Part shown: positions 51,001 to 57,000 of the stretch, in pieces | Position numbering within the stretch: position 1 is the first letter of the stretch | Layout of the letters: each line of letters starts with the position of its first letter | Origin: Rhizobium sp. Q54 | GTDB taxonomy: Bacteria > Pseudomonadota > Alphaproteobacteria > SHVZ01 | Direction: 5' to 3' | Length of the DNA: 64,000 nt | Assembly: GCA_945871425.1 (NCBI GenBank) | Contig: CAMBVS010000009.1 | Coordinates: 1,894-65,893, forward strand | Position numbers: made by a program

Positions 51001-54000
51001 TGCCGGTAGACGACGTAGTCGGCGTAGATCTCCCGGCATTCTTCCCGCCAGGCAGCGGTGACCTGCTTCTGGGCGGTCCCGCAGGACATGCAGACGACGA
51101 GCCGCCCGTCGGCCGGCCACGGCCGGCAGTCGGACGTGACGCGCTTCAGCGCCCGGTATGCCTCGACTTCCCGCAGCTCGGGGCCATCACACACTTGGCA
51201 CGCCGGCCCCGCGCGCCCATTCGAGCTCATGACCTCGGCATTCAATCGAAGGCGCTCCAGGGGTAGCGGCGACGCCGGCAATCTAGTGCACCGGCCACGT
51301 TCAGTCGAATGCCCGGCCGCATCCGCCAGCTCCCAATGCCGTCGACAGCTTGATCCGCCACCTCACGCTTGTAAGATCGCGCGGAACAGCCCAGCCCCAC
51401 CTGGGTATGCATTCGGATTCCCACCTGGAGCATGAGATGAAAGAGATCACCTTCGATTCGCGGGCGAGGGACGAGACCTACTGGCGCGAACTGTCGCGGG
51501 TGATCGAAGAGCGCGGCTACTCGACCGAGAGCATCCTCCGCCACTGGCCCGCCTACGTCCTGCGCCGTGACGTCCCTCGGTTTCTTTCCCACTACGAGCT
51601 TTTCAAGCACGTCATCGACCTGCCGGGATGCATCGTCGAGCTCGGCGTGTTCAAGGGCGCCAGCTTCTTCACCTGGTCGATGCTCCTGGAGACGTTCGTG
51701 CCGTTCGATCGCTCGCGGAAGGTCTTCGGCTTCGACAGCTTCGAAGGGTTGACCGAGTTCAGCTCCAAGGATGGCCGCATGGACACGTCCGCGGACAAGG
51801 TCGTCGGCGGCTACAAATGCACCGCGGCCGAGCTGGAGGCCCTGACCCAGCTTCACAACAGCGACAACATGATCCCCGGGACGAAGCGGGCCAACCTGAT
51901 CGTCGGCGACATCAAGGACACCATCCCCAAGTTCCTCGAAGACAACCCGGGCCTCAAGATCAGCCTGCTTCACTTCGACGTGGACCTCTACGAGCCGACC
52001 AAGTTCGGCATGGAGCAGCTGTTCCCGCTCGTCCTGCAGGGCGGCGTCGTCTGCTTCGACGAATACGGCCTGGTGCCCTGGCAAGGCGAGACGCGCGCGG
52101 TCGACGAGTACTTCGCCAAGATCGGCATCGCGCCGACGATCAGGAAGCACGCCTTCACCCAGACACCGCACGGCTATCTCATCAAGTCATGACCACGCCG
52201 GCATCCTCGTCGGACCTGGAGCTGACGGTAGCGTCGTCGGGTCTCGCGCTCGCGAAATCGATCTACGATCGCCGCGGCATTGTCGTCGTTCGCGGCCTGC
52301 TCGATGCGGACGTTGTCGGACACGCGCTCGAAACCCTGCGCAAGCTGCTGGCCGCGCGCGCCGCCGCGGTCGGCATCGACGGCCTTGCGGACGCCTCGGC
52401 GCACGAGCTGATCAACGCGCTCCAGGCGCGCGATCGCCGCTACGTGATGGATGTCATCCGGATCGGCAAGGACCTGCCCGAGTTCTACGGCACCTTCACC
52501 CACCCCGGCCTCCTGAAGTTCGCCAAGACCCTGGTCGGCTCCGACATCCTGCAATGCGTCCACGACATCGCTCAGATCCGCATCGACCCGCCGGACGACG
52601 CCGTCCGGAACTTCGATTGGCACCAGGATTTCCACTACAACCTGACCAGCGAGAATGCGGTGACCGCCTGGTTCCCCCTGTCGCCGATCGATCGCGACAT
52701 GGGCCAGCTCGTCGTCGCGCCGGGATCGCACCGCGCGCTCGCCAAGGTCCAGCTCGACCGCCGCACGCATGTCCCCGGCCAGGGGACGACCCATGCCACG
52801 GTGAAGTTCCAGGTCGATCTCGCGGCGCTCGAGGCCGGCGCCATCGAGCTCGATATCGTCGAGCCGGGCGACGTCGCGTTCTTCGACTGCAAGCTGCTCC
52901 ACCGGAGCGGCCTCAACCGGAGCGACCGCAGCCGGATCGTCTTCAATCCGCGCTACGGAAACGCGCTCGATCCCGCCGTCGTCGGGCGCGGATGGTCGTG
53001 CATGCGCGACAAGACCCAGGATCTTCTGGAGGCGCTCTACCCGGAGCTCCTCGAAGCACCCTCGCCTAAGGCCTGACGAGGTAGGCGCCGGGGACGTTGG
53101 TCCAGGTGAAGGTCTGAAGGCGGAGGCCGGGCTGACCGGCCAGGAACTCGTCCACCGCCTTGGTCTCGCCCGGCCAGTCCGGGATGGCGTACTCGTCGAA
53201 GATCAGGACCCCTCCCCGCGACACCTTCGGCCACAATGCGTCCAGCGCGGCCTTGGTCGGCCTATAGAGATCGCAGTCGAAATGCACCAGCGAGAAGCGG
53301 ACGCCGGGATTGTCGGCGGCGAAGGCCGGCATCGTCTCCTCGACATGGCCGTCGATCAGCTTGATCCGCGGCTTCCACGGGATGAAGCGATCCTGGTCGA
53401 AGATGCTTATGGCGCTCTCCAGCTCGTCCCGGAATTTCTTCGGGTCGAATCCGCCGACCACCTTGCCCGCGGACGGCTTCGGCTTCCCGTCCTCCGGACT
53501 GAAGCCGGAGAAACCCTGCCAGTTGTCGAAACCGTAGACGGTCTTGGTCCGGTCGCCGATGCAATAGGCCTCGAGCAGGTTGGCCCAGGTCATGAGCCCG
53601 GCGCCGCGGAAGACGCCGATCTCGGCGATGTCCCCGGGCACGTCGAGAGTCAGCTTGAACAGGTCGACATGGGCGAGAAACCGCTTGAGGTGCTGGCGGC
53701 GCGCCAGAACCGTGAAGTGCTTGACCGCGTCGAGGGGCTCGATCGCGAAGGTCCGGCAATGCTCGGCGAGCGCCGTCTCGATCTGCGTGTCGAGCCCCTG
53801 CTTCTTGAAGCCGGATGAAGCATCGAAGGTTTCGCTCACGTCAGGCCGCCCCCTCTTGTCACGTCCGCGCACGCGCAGGGCTTTCGCCGGGCGCAAGGAC
53901 ACGCCACTGCTGCAGGTCGAGCACATGCTTGCGCGAGACGACCGTGTCCGGAAAGAACCTCATGTCGATGCTCAGCCGCGTACGCGTCGATACGTTCGGC

Positions 54001-57000
54001 TGCGAAACGTGAATCAGCTGCTTGTTGAAGATGATGAGGTCGCCGGGCGACATCGGCCGGCACGCCCGGTTGCGGAAGCCCGTGGTCGAGACCGCCGCCA
54101 GCCACTGCTCGGACTTGCTGTCGTCCAGAAGCTCGGGCTCGTTCTGGCTGCCTTCGAAGACGGCCATGCCGCCGCACACGTCGTCGATCTCGACCAAGGG
54201 CACCCACACGGTGAGGAAGTCGGAGAGGTGCTGGTTGTAGGTAATGTCCTGATGAGGCGGCACGGCGGCGCCGAAATTGTTCGGGAGGATGAACCGCGCC
54301 GTCGGCGGCATGTGCATGAAGATCGGGCGCCCGCCGAGAGCGGCGTCCAGGACCGCCCGCAGGCCCGCGTCCCTGGGAATGACCCAAAGCCGCTCGGACA
54401 GCCGCGTCGCCAACGGGAAATGGCCGAGCATGATCGACTGGGCGGCCTCCGGCAGATCCCCGGGGCGGGCCTCCGCCAGGACGGCCGCGACCTTGCGGCC
54501 GTTGTCGGGGTCGTCCGCATGGATGTCCCAGGGCGCCATCTCGGCAAACGCCTGGGCCAGGCTCTCTTGCAGAAATGCATGCACCGAGCCCACGACCCCC
54601 GGCGACAGGACGCCGCGAAGGATCTGGTAACCGTCCCGCTTCAGGCCCGAGATGTCGACGCCCGCCATTGAAGCATCCGCTGGCTGATTCATGACGATTA
54701 CGCTTTCGCCGCGGCCTTGCGAGCGGCGAAATGCCCCTCGGCAACGCGCCATTGATCATACCATAACCGGCTGGAAACGAAGCGGAGCGGGCTCGCCGCG
54801 TCGCTCGAACGACGAATCGGCGTCACCAGGAACTGAACAGGTGGCGGTGGCGGCGAAGGAAGCCCTGGCCGGCCCGCGCCCCCGCCTCGCCGACCGAGTA
54901 AGGGCGCAGCAGGGCGAGCCAGCGGTTCTGCAAGGCCTCGTCCTCCTCCGAATAGCTGGCGCGTCTGTCGGCCTTTTCCAGCATCTCCTCGGTGAGGGTG
55001 AGGATGTCTTCGGCTTCGCTGTCGACGGCTTCGAGGCCGCGATCCGCCAGGCACCTGGAATCGTAGGTGAGCGCCAGCGGCATCCGCATGCTTTCGTCGA
55101 AAGTCAGAAAGCGGCCGCTCTGCCGCTCGCGGATCAGCTTCGGGATGAACAGATCCGACTTGCTGGCCATCCGGTCGCCGGGCGGAAAGAAGTTCGTGGC
55201 GGCGACCGGCACGCCGAAGTTCAAGCCGACGACCATCATGCCGGACGTCGTCGCGAGGATGAAGCGGCAGCTCGCCGCGAGGAACACATCCATCCAGTCC
55301 GAGCGTTCGGCCGACAGCGCGTAGTCGACGACGTTCGCCATCGCCGGCAGCGGCGTCATGGTCGGATCGCCGAGGCGGACGACCCAGCCGCCGTGGCGCG
55401 TGATCGCCTCGATCGCCGGGAAGAAGGCGCGGATGTCGGCGTTCCGTGCGGCTTCCGGCGATGCGGGATCCTCGCGGAGATAGCCGGTCTCGCGGACATG
55501 GACGCAGACGAACCAGGCGCCGGCGGGTACGCCGAGGCGCCGCAGGTTCTCCTGCCCGCACTCCGCATGGTCGCGCCTCAGATCGAGGAGCGGTCCGCGT
55601 CCCTGACGCTGCCACTCCTCCTGTACCGCGTGATAGACACGATTCTTCGACATGGCACGGCCGTCGGGCAGGCGCATGTAGACGGGATTGAAGGGGACGC
55701 GGTCCTTCAGGGGCGCGATCCGCTCGATCAGCTTCGGATCGTCGATCACCGTGACGTATTGCCGCCAGTAGTCGAGGAGGCACGGGTTGACGACGCGCTC
55801 GCGCGGCGCAATCAACAGCGTGACGAAGGGCGGCAGCCACCCCAGCAGCTTCATCTTCACGTGAAGCTCGAGCTGATGGGCCATCTCGCCGATCCGCGTA
55901 GTCAGCTCGTCGGGGAACAGGATGCGGAAGCCATGCGCGCCAAACTCGTCGGCCGCGGCGCGGGACATCTCTGCGTCGATGAGGGTCGTGCAGAAGCGGG
56001 TGGCCTCCGCCTCCTCGCCGATGTCGCGCAGATACTGGACGACCGGGATGACGACGGCGGGATTGTCGGGGATGCGCTCGGCGGCGATGCGGGCCGGCTT
56101 CATCACCAGCTCGCGCGGCGCCCCTGCCTCCTGCAGCGCGCCGGCCAGGGTGACAAAGCCTTCAGTATAAGCTTGGTCCTCGACCACCGCCCGATAGAAG
56201 CATTTCATTGCCTCTTCGAAGCGGTCGGCGCCATGCAGGATCATGCCGCGCGCGACATGGGCCTCGCCGAAGGGGCGTCGGAGGCCGGTGACCCGCCGCA
56301 GCCAGAGATCCGCCTCGTCGATGCGCTTGACCCGGCCGAGCCCCTTGCCCAGCCGCAGCGTCAGCCCCTCCTGCGCCGGCGCAAGCGCGACCGCGGCGTA
56401 GAGGCTTTCGATTCCACGCGGTCCGTCGCCGGCGACGATCCGGGCCTCGCCCAGATCGGCGCGCCAGCCGGCATTGGTCGGCTCGATGCGCACCGCCATC
56501 TCCAGATGCGCGACGCCCTCGATGAGGCCTGCGGCGATCATGGCGAGACCGGTCTCGTGATGGGCGCGGCCGTTCTGCGGCGCCGCCTGCAGCACGGCGC
56601 CGAGGATGCCGACGGCTTCGGTGAGTTTGCCTGCCTCCCGCTGCGCCCGGGCGGCCTCGATCATCGCCGACAGATGCAGTCCGGTCATGCCCGTCCGGCA
56701 AGCACGCGACGTATGACGGAAGCGGCGCGCTCCGCCTCGGCCTCGGTCAGCGAGAAATGCGAGGGTAGCCAGAGGCCCCGCTCGGAAGCGCCGATCGCCG
56801 CCTCGAAGCCCGCGTCATCCTGCCTGTAGCTGTCCTGGCGGTGGATCGGCAGCCAGAAGCGGCGGCTGCCGATCTTCTCGGCCGTCAGCGCCGCCTCGAC
56901 CGCGTCGGCGCGCTCGATCAGCGCATCGGTCCACTGGGTGATCTCGCCGCCATTGTGATCGACTGCCGGCAGCACGATCCCCGGACAGTCGCCGAGCAGC

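What the first reader, a model, noticed from the sequence alone, without database searches (positions are those of the whole stretch)
51437..54692. Two TylF-type O-methyltransferase / PhyH-type Fe(II)-2OG oxygenase pairs in mirror arrangement
The plus-strand TylF-PhyH pair (ATGA-coupled) converges on a minus-strand TylF-PhyH pair, with an 11-nt 3' overlap between the PhyH and TylF ends. PhyH-family oxygenases are rare in bacterial glycan loci. Paired with macrocin-type O-methyltransferases they suggest hydroxylation and O-methylation of a sugar or acyl/aminoacyl substituent. The duplicated pair may act on two positions or on both units of a disaccharide.
Basis: partly seen in the sequence, partly recalled or inferred. 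Interest (0 to 1): 0.6.

Follow-up and report, generated by a model that had tools for sequence, protein, structure and literature searches.

The report
Conserved oxygenase–methyltransferase sugar-tailoring gene pairs
Two old, non-identical pairs of an iron/2-oxoglutarate oxygenase gene and a sugar O-methyltransferase gene sit in a large sugar-biosynthesis island next to flagellar genes. One pair is an uncharacterised two-gene module that recurs in glycan loci of at least nine bacterial phyla, and in some loci a radical-SAM gene takes the oxygenase's place.

Summary
Four intact genes lie at 51437-54668: TylF(+), PhyH(+), TylF(-) and PhyH(-). The plus pair shares an ATGA overlap, and the convergent 3' ends overlap by 11 nt.

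It is not a recent or mirror duplication.
- The two methyltransferases are 43% identical.
- The two oxygenases are only about 23-27% identical.
- Gene order within the pairs differs.
- Each pair has its own orthologues elsewhere.

Both oxygenases keep the HxD...H iron triad and the 2-oxoglutarate arginine. Both methyltransferases keep the SAM and metal motifs, and their closest solved relative is CalS11, a TDP-rhamnose 3'-O-methyltransferase.

The minus-strand pair is a conserved module.
- A TylF orthologue lies within 400 bp of the PhyH orthologue in 44 of 47 testable species genomes, across nine phyla.
- Of 69 testable metagenome loci holding the TylF orthologue, 53 carry PhyH, 9 carry a radical-SAM gene in its place, 5 carry both and 2 carry neither.

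The surrounding island lies beside flagellar genes. It encodes heptose/octose-type precursor enzymes, aminotransferases, C-methyltransferases and a TPR-glycosyltransferase, and no polysaccharide exporter.

The best reading is C-H oxidation followed by O-methylation of a nucleotide-linked sugar. This is inferred, not shown. No publication on this pairing was found in the searched library. Interest is moderate.

The parts
51437..52192 (+). TylFp: CalS11-like TylF-family SAM- and metal-dependent O-methyltransferase, 251 aa
   Evidence: PF05711 scores 53.3 bits against a cut-off of 23. The best solved relative is CalS11, TDP-rhamnose 3'-O-methyltransferase, E 1.9e-33. It is 43% identical to TylFm. 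Orthologues of 68-76% identity always sit directly upstream of a PhyHp orthologue in L005, L007, L008, L052 and L070.
52189..53076 (+). PhyHp: PhyH-family Fe(II)/2-oxoglutarate oxygenase, 295 aa, translationally coupled to TylFp by an ATGA overlap
   Evidence: PF05721 scores 79.5 bits. H145, D147, H238 and R249 are invariant in 18 homologues. The AF2 model has pLDDT 88 and matches PhyH-family 2-oxoglutarate oxygenase structures. The subfamily is small: 22 clusters in the word-indexed search and 45 50%-clusters at E<=1e-30 among 1.84 billion representatives.
53066..53839 (-). TylFm: second CalS11-like TylF-family O-methyltransferase, 257 aa, GTG start with an AGAGGGGG ribosome-binding site
   Evidence: PF05711 scores 64.9 bits. 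CalS11 E 7.6e-28. The SAM motif E72/G74/G78 and the acidic residues D187, D189, D214 and E215 are invariant in 22 sequences. More than 1000 clusters match at E<=1e-20, and the top 120 are all at least 68% identical.
53859..54668 (-). PhyHm: second PhyH-family Fe(II)/2-oxoglutarate oxygenase, 269 aa (alternative ATG at 54692), 19 nt upstream of TylFm
   Evidence: PF05721 scores 61.3 bits. H138, D140, H219, R230 and S232 are invariant in 30 homologues. The AF2 model has pLDDT 94.9. Foldseek matches SnoN, PHYHD1, FtmOx1, PtlH, EvdO2 and KanJ at TM 0.5-0.65. A TylFm orthologue lies within 400 bp in 44 of 47 testable genomes.
50091..51230 (-). Class I methyltransferase of 379 aa with an N-terminal CxxC...CxxC segment, divergent from TylFp. 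It is the most frequent third neighbour of the module.
   Evidence: PF13489 and PF08242 hits. Weak best PDB hit to D-mycarose 3-C-methyltransferase, E 1e-3. A homologue is present in 18 of 29 loci with at least 6 kb of flank on both sides, and within 3 kb in 14.
49202..49933 (-). RmlD-like NAD(P)-dependent sugar reductase/epimerase, a recurrent cassette member
   Evidence: PF04321 and PF01370 hits. TIGR01214 scores 84 bits, below its cut-off. Public gene calls give 243 aa. It sits next to the module in Leptospira L018, Azospirillaceae L017 and L093.
54823..56688 (-). TPR (N-terminal) plus TIGR04372-family glycosyltransferase (C-terminal), 621 aa. Probable transferase for the island's sugar.
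   Evidence: TIGR04372 domain scores 206.7 bits against a cut-off of 45, at residues 391-594. TPR hits fall at residues 10-190. This domain plan matches that described for the flagellin O-glycosyltransferase FlmG (PMC7591256). A TIGR04372 glycosyltransferase also lies in cassette L093, and homologues lie near the module in eight other loci.
33243..64000 (.). Surrounding sugar-biosynthesis island, given as context. In order: FkbM-type methyltransferase, transketolase-like, 230-aa methyltransferase, epimerase, NDP-sugar dehydrogenase, GFO/IDH/MocA oxidoreductase, HldE-like nucleotidyltransferase+kinase, epimerase/dehydratase, two DegT, transaldolase, GmhB-like HAD, GmhA-like SIS, LysR, the parts listed above, a third DegT, NeuD-like acetyltransferase, C-methyltransferase, a second NDP-sugar dehydrogenase, and a TPR protein.
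   Evidence: Pfam and NCBIfam scans. Flagellar genes FliE, FlgC, FlgB, FliO, FliM and FliL lie directly upstream at 21.4-32.8 kb.

Best explanation
Each pair is a two-enzyme tailoring module acting on a sugar intermediate of the island, probably a nucleotide-linked one. The Fe(II)/2-oxoglutarate oxygenase activates a C-H bond, most simply by hydroxylating a deoxy or branch carbon. The Mg-dependent CalS11-like methyltransferase then methylates the new or neighbouring hydroxyl, giving a methoxy group.

The two pairs are old, non-redundant paralogues that act at two different positions or on two different intermediates.

The sugar appears to be built from a sedoheptulose- or octulose-phosphate type precursor. 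The relevant enzymes are a transaldolase, a SIS isomerase, a HAD phosphatase and a kinase/nucleotidyltransferase. The sugar is then aminated and C-methylated. In this organism it is most likely transferred by the TPR-TIGR04372 glycosyltransferase to a protein acceptor such as flagellin.

Shown here: gene integrity, catalytic residues, family membership, conserved linkage and genomic context. Inferred: the substrate, the order of steps, hydroxylation as the oxygenase chemistry, and flagellin as the acceptor.
For: - Both oxygenases keep the iron triad and the 2-oxoglutarate arginine, and their models are confident.
- Both methyltransferases keep the SAM and acidic metal motifs. Their closest solved relative is CalS11, which methylates TDP-rhamnose.
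- Linkage is tight. The plus pair shares an ATGA overlap, conserved as a 4-nt overlap in L007 and L008 and a 2-nt gap in L005. The minus pair has a 19-nt gap with a ribosome-binding site.
- Conservation is strong. A TylFm orthologue lies within 400 bp of PhyHm in 44 of 47 testable species genomes, in both gene orders. PhyH lies next to TylFm in 58 of 69 testable metagenome loci.
- In 9 loci a radical-SAM gene occupies the PhyH position next to an orthologous TylFm (64-69% identical in the nine metagenome loci, 71-72% in L093). This fits a C-H-activating partner that comes in O2-dependent and O2-independent versions.
- The context is a sugar-nucleotide island.
- There is a precedent for the logic. 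The cephamycin C-7 methoxylation system is a two-protein methoxylase, cmcI/cmcJ (PMC6661058).
Against: - There is no biochemical or glycan-structure evidence.
- Radical-SAM enzymes are not typical hydroxylases. If the radical-SAM gene is truly isofunctional, hydroxylation becomes less likely.
- Five loci carry both PhyH and the radical-SAM gene, so the two may not be isofunctional.
- The nearest structural relatives include sugar-acting PhyH-type enzymes that do not hydroxylate: the SnoN epimerase, the SnoK carbocyclase, the EvdO2 oxidative cyclase and the KanJ deaminating dioxygenase.
- All structural matches are distant, with TM 0.5-0.65 and at most 24% identity. They say nothing about the substrate.
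- In Azospirillum lipoferum Sp59b the two genes are about 16 kb apart within one locus.
Confidence: 0.45

Rival explanations
1. The oxygenase does not hydroxylate. It carries out another radical reaction on the sugar. Examples are SnoN-like epimerisation of a carbinol carbon, or two-electron oxidation of an alcohol or amine to a ketone. The methyltransferase then methylates a hydroxyl whose configuration or availability depends on that step.
For: - SnoN is among the best structural matches of both oxygenases, and KanJ also matches PhyHm.
- A radical-SAM gene takes the place of PhyH in 9 loci.
- From general knowledge, epimerisation and alcohol oxidation are chemistries shared by 2-oxoglutarate oxygenases and radical-SAM enzymes. 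Hydroxylation is not.
Against: - The matches to SnoN and KanJ are no better than those to true hydroxylases such as PtlH, PHYH, EctD and a proline hydroxylase.
- The radical-SAM protein belongs to no named family.
- Both PhyH and the radical-SAM gene occur together in 5 loci.
Confidence: 0.2
2. The pairs act on an N-acyl side chain of an amino sugar rather than on the sugar ring. The oxygenase would hydroxylate the acyl chain at the alpha or beta carbon, as the archetypal phytanoyl-CoA 2-hydroxylase does. O-methylation would follow. Two pairs would then give a di-methoxy or methoxy-hydroxy acyl group.
For: - Human phytanoyl-CoA 2-hydroxylase is the best sequence match of PhyHp in the PDB, E 1.5e-11.
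- The island encodes three DegT aminotransferases and a NeuD-type acyltransferase.
- Flagellin sugars with methoxy-acyl substituents exist, such as the 2-methoxy-4,5,6-trihydroxy-hexanoyl nonulosonic acid of Treponema denticola FlaB (PMC13439194).
- The related locus L093 carries NeuB and a Maf-like gene.
Against: - The methyltransferases are closest to ring-hydroxyl sugar O-methyltransferases: CalS11, MycF and NovP.
- No acyl carrier protein or CoA ligase was seen among the island genes scanned in the window.
- Most loci carry only one pair.
Confidence: 0.15
3. Methylation comes first, and the oxygenase or radical-SAM enzyme then oxidises the O-methyl group. This would close a methylene acetal (methylenedioxy bridge) onto a neighbouring hydroxyl, or remove the methyl group.
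For: - The everninomicin cluster encodes EvdMO1, a fused methyltransferase-oxidase. Methylenedioxy bridge formation is predicted for its eurekanate sugar (PMC10338323, text and reference titles).
- EvdO2 appears among the structural matches of PhyHm at TM 0.57-0.65.
- The radical-SAM replacement resembles SPASM/twitch-type cross-linking enzymes in weak family hits.
Against: - The genes here are separate, and the EvdO2 match is no better than dozens of others.
- I know of no methylene-acetal sugars in bacterial surface glycans. That is my own knowledge, not a test.
- A methylation-demethylation cycle would be futile.
Confidence: 0.07
4. The adjacency has no functional meaning. The four genes would be unrelated tailoring enzymes that happen to be neighbours.
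For: None beyond the absence of direct experimental data.
Against: - Linkage is conserved in 44 of 47 genomes from nine phyla, in both gene orders and with median gaps of about 35 nt.
- Linkage also holds in 58 of 69 metagenome loci.
- Translational coupling is conserved.
Confidence: 0.02

Closest known systems
CalS11 (TDP-rhamnose 3'-O-methyltransferase, calicheamicin pathway) and other TylF-family sugar O-methyltransferases (MycF, NovP)
   Same: Both window methyltransferases match PF05711. CalS11 is their best solved relative (E 1.9e-33 and 7.6e-28), aligned over nearly the whole length. The ExGxxxG SAM motif and the DxD...DE acidic motifs are conserved.
   Different: They are a separate, tightly conserved orthologue group. 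TylFm orthologues are 63-80% identical across phyla, while both window methyltransferases match CalS11 much more weakly (101-119 bits) than each other (194 bits). Unlike CalS11, they are almost always partnered with an oxygenase or a radical-SAM gene. Substrate and regiochemistry are unknown.
PhyH-subfamily Fe(II)/2-oxoglutarate oxygenases that act on sugars or small molecules (SnoN, SnoK, EvdO2, KanJ, PtlH, EctD, human PHYH)
   Same: They share the PF05721 domain, the HxD...H triad, the 2-oxoglutarate arginine and the fold predicted by AF2.
   Different: Identity is at most 24% and TM 0.5-0.65. No named NCBIfam model is reached: EctD 30 against 336.5 bits, PtlH-type 38-44 against 550, TIGR04324 25 against 150. 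PhyHp and PhyHm are distinct subfamilies, 23% identical profile to profile.
CmcI/CmcJ two-protein 7-alpha-cephem methoxylase (cephamycin C)
   Same: The logic is the same: adjacent, co-transcribed genes for an oxygen-dependent step and a methyltransferase together turn a C-H into a C-OCH3 (PMC6661058, text and reference titles).
   Different: The substrate is different (a beta-lactam, not a sugar). No CmcI-family Pfam hit was returned for the window methyltransferases at E<=0.01. This is a functional analogy only.
EvdMO1 (fused methyltransferase-oxidase, everninomicin) and the orthosomycin oxygenases
   Same: A methyltransferase is coupled to a PhyH-type oxygenase in the tailoring of an unusual sugar (PMC10338323 reference list). 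EvdO2 is a structural match.
   Different: The genes here are separate, not fused. The context is a surface or flagellar glycan island in an alphaproteobacterium, not an actinomycete antibiotic cluster. The EvdMO1 methyltransferase type was not compared.
NCBIfam TIGR04324 'sporadic carbohydrate cluster 2OG-Fe(II) oxygenase'
   Same: The concept is the same: a 2-oxoglutarate oxygenase embedded in a sporadically distributed carbohydrate gene cluster. PhyHm gives a weak hit.
   Different: The score is 25.2 bits against a cut-off of 150. It is not a member.
FlmG flagellin O-glycosyltransferase (Caulobacter)
   Same: The neighbouring 621-aa protein has the same plan: N-terminal TPR and C-terminal glycosyltransferase domain. 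It lies close to flagellar genes.
   Different: Sequence relatedness to FlmG was not tested. The donor sugar here is not shown to be pseudaminic acid.

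Membership tests
TylF/MycF/NovP sugar O-methyltransferase family (PF05711) | Profile match above the curated threshold | tested here: met
   53.3 and 64.9 bits against a cut-off of 23.
TylF/MycF/NovP sugar O-methyltransferase family (PF05711) | SAM-binding glycine-rich motif and acidic metal-binding residues | tested here: met
   E72, G74, G78, D104, D187, D189, D214 and E215 are invariant in 22 aligned sequences that include both window copies. They align with the CalS11 FDLDLYEPTK and FDE segments.
TylF/MycF/NovP sugar O-methyltransferase family (PF05711) | O-methylation of a sugar hydroxyl | not testable with these tools
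   This needs an enzyme assay.
PhyH-type Fe(II)/2-oxoglutarate dioxygenases (PF05721) | Profile match above the curated threshold | tested here: met
   79.5 and 61.3 bits against a cut-off of 22.
PhyH-type Fe(II)/2-oxoglutarate dioxygenases (PF05721) | HxD/E...H iron triad and the arginine that binds 2-oxoglutarate | tested here: met
   PhyHp has H145, D147, H238 and R249. PhyHm has H138, D140, H219 and R230. All are invariant.
PhyH-type Fe(II)/2-oxoglutarate dioxygenases (PF05721) | PhyH-family oxygenase fold | tested here: met
   AF2 models have pLDDT 88.4 and 94.9. Foldseek probability is 1.00 to PtlH, SnoN, PHYH and EctD.
Ectoine hydroxylase EctD (TIGR02408) | Equivalog score at or above the curated cut-off | tested here: not met
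   PhyHp scores 30.3 bits against 336.5. PhyHm gives no hit.
TIGR04324 sporadic carbohydrate cluster 2OG-Fe(II) oxygenase | Subfamily score at or above the curated cut-off | tested here: not met
   PhyHm scores 25.2 bits against 150. PhyHp gives no hit.
Recent tandem or inverted gene duplication | High identity between the copies at protein and DNA level | tested here: not met
   The TylF copies are 43% identical. The PhyH copies are 27% identical over 115 aa and 23% profile to profile. The only DNA-level repeat is a 25-nt conserved coding motif.
EvdMO1-type fused methyltransferase-oxygenase | Both domains in a single polypeptide | tested here: not met
   The genes are separate, with their own start and stop codons.
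FlmG-type flagellin glycosyltransferase (neighbouring gene 54823-56688) | N-terminal TPR plus C-terminal glycosyltransferase domain | tested here: met
   TPR hits fall at residues 10-190 and TIGR04372 at residues 391-594. The FlmG architecture is taken from PMC7591256.
FlmG-type flagellin glycosyltransferase (neighbouring gene 54823-56688) | Sequence homology to FlmG and glycosylation of flagellin | not tested
No flagellin gene was identified among the window genes scanned.

The most novel reading that the evidence does not exclude
The PhyH-TylF pair, and its radical-SAM-TylF counterpart, may be an ancient, portable two-enzyme cassette. It would come in an oxygen-dependent and an oxygen-independent version. 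It would install a methoxy group, or perform an oxidative cyclisation, on an undescribed higher-carbon (C7/C8) amino sugar. That sugar would be displayed on flagellins and lipopolysaccharides in at least nine bacterial phyla.
Probability: 0.25. Interest if true: 0.65.

Novelty: new variant of a known kind. Interest (0 to 1): 0.45.

Why it matters
If the module works as proposed, it defines a widespread and so far unstudied tailoring step of bacterial surface and flagellar sugars.

The step has a built-in aerobic/anaerobic alternative. That is a useful handle for working out the chemistry.

It also flags a sporadically distributed gene cassette whose sugar product is unknown. The cassette contains a transketolase-like enzyme, several methyltransferases, an RmlD-like reductase, the oxygenase or radical-SAM gene, the TylF gene and a TIGR04372 glycosyltransferase.

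Cultured carriers make the question directly testable. They include Azospirillum lipoferum Sp59b, Rhodospirillales bacterium URHD0017, Leptospira santarosai, Oceanobacillus sp. HTM 045 and Gemmata sp. IIL30.

The practical interest lies in glycan structure prediction, in serotype and flagellar antigen diversity, and in new C-H-functionalising enzymes for sugar chemistry.

Tried and rejected
1. Recent duplication or mirror copy: rejected from the identities and the lack of DNA-level repeats.
2. Orthology to ectoine, proline or PtlH-type hydroxylases: rejected, because NCBIfam scores are far below the cut-offs.
4. Literature: no paper links PhyH with TylF, flagellin glycosylation or the Leptospira rfb locus in the searchable library. 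The EvdMO1 and orthosomycin oxygenase papers are not held.
5. Co-divergence of oxygenase and methyltransferase identities, as a test for duplication of the pair as a unit: uninformative (Spearman 0.007, n=98). Both identities sit on a plateau of about 68% and about 40%.
6. Naming the radical-SAM replacement: only generic PF04055 and weak SPASM/twitch-type hits were found.
7. Promoter and terminator scan of 51000-55000: nothing found.
8. Naming the pathway from NCBIfam equivalogs: only the transaldolase reached its equivalog cut-off (TIGR02134). The two NDP-sugar dehydrogenases, the HAD phosphatase and the TPR-glycosyltransferase domain passed only broad subfamily or domain cut-offs. No model named the pathway.

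Full report
**Observation.** The window is high in G+C (about 0.68), and third-position G+C separates real genes from spurious ORFs. Four coding-like ORFs occupy 51437-54668.
- TylFp: 51437-52192, plus strand, 251 aa.
- PhyHp: 52189-53076, plus strand, 295 aa.
- TylFm: 53066-53839, minus strand, 257 aa. It has a GTG start preceded by AGAGGGGG. The longer ORF runs to 53926.
- PhyHm: 53859-54668, minus strand, 269 aa.

All four pass the Pfam gathering thresholds for PF05711 (TylF) or PF05721 (PhyH). The ATGA overlap and the 11-nt convergent 3' overlap at 53066-53076 are as described. The same four-gene block is found, with identical proteins, on about 18-20 independent public contigs. The word 'mirror' is loose. 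The map order is T-P-T-P, and the order within the pairs differs: TylF->PhyH on the plus strand and PhyH->TylF on the minus strand.

**Are the pairs duplicates?** The two methyltransferases are 43% identical over 231 residues (194 bits). That is closer than either is to CalS11 (119 and 101 bits), so they are old paralogues.

The two oxygenases align over only 115 residues at 27% (37.7 bits). That is no better than PhyHp against human PHYH (47 bits) or PhyHm against PtlH (41 bits). Profile-to-profile comparison confirms homology at only 23% identity. The only DNA-level repeat between the copies is a 25-nt stretch encoding the shared SA(D/G)KVVGG motif.

Each pair has its own orthologues. TylFp-PhyHp pairs (68-76% and 42-47% identical) occur in L005/L048, L007, L008, L052 (Rhodospirillales bacterium URHD0017) and L070 (Reyranella), always as TylF->PhyH with an overlap or a 2-nt gap. 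In most of these relatives the second pair lies 7-8 kb away, beyond a C-methyltransferase, two DegT genes and a 380-400-aa methyltransferase. The abutting arrangement in this window is a local rearrangement, also seen in L118 at about 95% identity. It is not a duplication event.

**Catalytic competence.**
- PhyHp has H145, D147, H238 and R249 invariant in 18 homologues.
- PhyHm has H138, D140, H219, R230 and S232 invariant in 30 homologues.
- The AF2 models are confident, with pLDDT 88.4 and 94.9.
- The models match PhyH-subfamily structures: PtlH, SnoN, SnoK, a proline hydroxylase, PHYH, PHYHD1, EctD, FtmOx1, EvdO2 and KanJ. These matches are distant, with TM 0.5-0.65 and at most 24% identity.
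- No NCBIfam equivalog is reached (EctD 30 against 336.5 bits; TIGR04324 25 against 150).
- The methyltransferases keep the SAM motif and the acidic DxD...DE residues. Their best solved relative is CalS11, a TDP-rhamnose 3'-O-methyltransferase.

**Conservation of the pairing.** A scan of one genome per species found PhyHm-type genes in 49 genomes. They come from Pseudomonadota, Planctomycetota, Binatia, Bacillota (Oceanobacillus), Sericytochromatia/Blackallbacteria, Chlamydiales, Acidobacteriota and Verrucomicrobiota. Leptospira adds a ninth phylum.

I annotated the loci by tblastn with the window's proteins. A TylFm-type gene lies within 400 bp in 44 of the 47 testable genomes. The order is PhyH->TylF in 30, TylF->PhyH in 12 and opposite strands in 2, with a median gap of about 35 nt. 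The methyltransferase is far more conserved than the oxygenase (mean 68% against 40%).

The survey was then run the other way, starting from TylFm. That family holds more than 1000 clusters, and the top 120 are all at least 68% identical. I examined 80 metagenome loci. Of the 69 that were testable:
- 53 carry PhyH only;
- 9 carry a radical-SAM gene in the PhyH position, 56-65% identical to L093:6994-8004;
- 5 carry both, in the order PhyH->rSAM->TylF in four of them;
- 2 carry neither.

The TylFm next to the radical-SAM genes in L093 is 71% identical to the window's copy, so it is the same orthologue. This methyltransferase is thus almost always partnered with a C-H-activating enzyme, either oxygen-dependent or oxygen-independent. 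By contrast, PhyHp belongs to a small subfamily: 22 clusters in the word-indexed search and 45 50%-identity clusters at E<=1e-30 among 1.84 billion representatives.

**Context.** Flagellar genes lie at 21.4-32.8 kb: FliE, FlgC, FlgB, FliO, FliM and FliL. From 33.2 kb to the window end runs a sugar island. In order it holds:
- an FkbM-type methyltransferase;
- a transketolase-like protein;
- a 230-aa methyltransferase;
- an epimerase;
- an NDP-sugar dehydrogenase;
- a GFO/IDH/MocA oxidoreductase;
- an HldE-like nucleotidyltransferase+kinase;
- an epimerase/dehydratase;
- two DegT aminotransferases;
- a transaldolase (TIGR02134, above its cut-off);
- a GmhB-like HAD phosphatase;
- a GmhA-like SIS isomerase;
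- a LysR regulator;
- an RmlD-like reductase;
- the 379-aa methyltransferase;
- the four genes of the finding;
- a TPR plus TIGR04372 glycosyltransferase;
- a third DegT;
- a NeuD-type acetyltransferase;
- a C-methyltransferase;
- a second NDP-sugar dehydrogenase;
- another TPR protein.

No Wzx, Wzy, ABC exporter or polyprenyl-phosphate transferase is present in this stretch. The TPR-glycosyltransferase has the domain plan of the flagellin O-glycosyltransferase FlmG (PMC7591256). A protein, probably flagellin, is therefore the most likely acceptor here. This is inference.

Elsewhere the same module sits in other glycoconjugate settings:
- directly upstream of wzm/wzt with a Wzt_C domain in L092;
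- in a Leptospira santarosai sugar locus that contains an RmlC-like gene;
- next to NeuB and a Maf-like gene in L093.

The recurrent core around the module is transketolase-like subunits, a methyltransferase of about 220 aa, an RmlD-like reductase, a methyltransferase of about 390 aa, PhyH or a radical-SAM gene, and TylF. The 379-aa methyltransferase is the most frequent third neighbour, present in 18 of 29 loci. A TIGR04372 glycosyltransferase also recurs.

**Mechanism.** The best-supported reading is a two-step tailoring module. The oxygenase functionalises a C-H bond of a sugar intermediate that is probably nucleotide-linked. The CalS11-like enzyme then O-methylates the resulting or adjacent hydroxyl. 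The two pairs act at different positions.

The logic has a precedent in the two-protein cephamycin C-7 methoxylase cmcI/cmcJ (PMC6661058). Only linkage, catalytic integrity and context are shown here. The chemistry is inferred.

The radical-SAM replacement cuts both ways. It supports a C-H-activating partner. Radical-SAM enzymes are not typical hydroxylases, however, so epimerisation or oxidation (SnoN- or KanJ-like) remains a serious rival. Two further readings remain possible:
- an acyl side-chain target, with a precedent in the methoxy-acyl nonulosonic acid on Treponema denticola FlaB (PMC13439194);
- methylation followed by oxidative cyclisation, as suggested by the fused methyltransferase-oxidase EvdMO1 (PMC10338323).

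**Novelty and verdict.** The enzymes are ordinary members of two large, known families, and a hydroxylase-methyltransferase pair is a known kind of tailoring logic. Three things are not described in the literature I could search:
- the obligate PhyH-TylF module;
- its radical-SAM alternative;
- the sporadically distributed cassette it belongs to.

I rate it a new variant of a known kind, of moderate interest (0.45).

Noticed in passing
window 33243-47828 (with 39018-39944 minus strand): The island holds a dedicated transaldolase, a SIS isomerase, a HAD phosphatase, a kinase/nucleotidyltransferase, an epimerase, a GFO/IDH/MocA oxidoreductase, an NDP-sugar dehydrogenase and DegT aminotransferases. 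These are the same enzyme classes as the lincosamide GDP-octose to GDP-lincosamide route (LmbR, N, K, O, M, Z, L, S in PMC12945683). An eight-carbon rather than seven-carbon sugar core is therefore possible. No Lmb sequences were available to compare.
   Followed up: partly
L093:5820-8004, and L104, L113, L121, L123, L137, L144, L151, L152, L154, L156, L159, L162, L165, L166: A radical-SAM gene of an unnamed family sits immediately upstream of the TylFm orthologue. In nine of these metagenome loci, and in L093, it replaces PhyH. In five metagenome loci it accompanies PhyH. Several loci carry a second radical-SAM gene. This may be an anaerobic counterpart of the oxygenase.
   Followed up: partly
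window 21491-32848 and 54823-56688: A flagellar gene block (FliE, FlgC, FlgB, FliO, FliM, FliL) directly precedes the sugar island. The island encodes TPR-glycosyltransferases with the domain plan of FlmG and no polysaccharide export genes. This looks like a flagellin glycosylation island. No flagellin gene was identified among the window genes scanned.
   Followed up: partly
L092:7179-10977: In a JGI metagenome contig the PhyH->TylF pair lies directly upstream of wzm and of a wzt that carries a Wzt_C carbohydrate-binding domain. The modified sugar could be the terminal cap that an O-antigen ABC transporter recognises.
   Followed up: no
L020 and L091 (Azospirillum lipoferum Sp59b, contig JALJXJ010000016): This is a cultured strain. 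Its PhyHm and TylFm orthologues lie about 16 kb apart within one large sugar locus. The locus also holds a Rieske oxygenase pair, FabH and an SDR. It would be a good experimental system and is an exception to the tight pairing.
   Followed up: no
L008:10849-12576: This locus has two p-type pairs and no m-type pair. The second pair is 51% (TylF) and 39% (PhyH) identical to the window's p pair. This hints that pairs can duplicate as units.
   Followed up: no
window 58432-60702 (minus strand): The C-methyltransferase ORF (PF08421/PF13489/PF08484 at residues 352-749) has an N-terminal extension of about 350 residues with no Pfam match. This could be a mis-called start or an unknown fused domain.
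   Followed up: partly
window 48255-49205 (plus strand): A LysR-type regulator gene is inserted in the middle of the sugar island, convergent with the RmlD-like gene (a 4-nt 3' overlap). It could regulate the right-hand half of the island.
   Followed up: no
window 3-2855 (minus strand): A large ORF runs off the window start and gives only a weak MobA/MobL relaxase-domain hit (22 bits, below the cut-off). This is a possible remnant of a mobile element in an otherwise chromosomal region that holds rplM, rpsI, recJ and hom.
   Followed up: no
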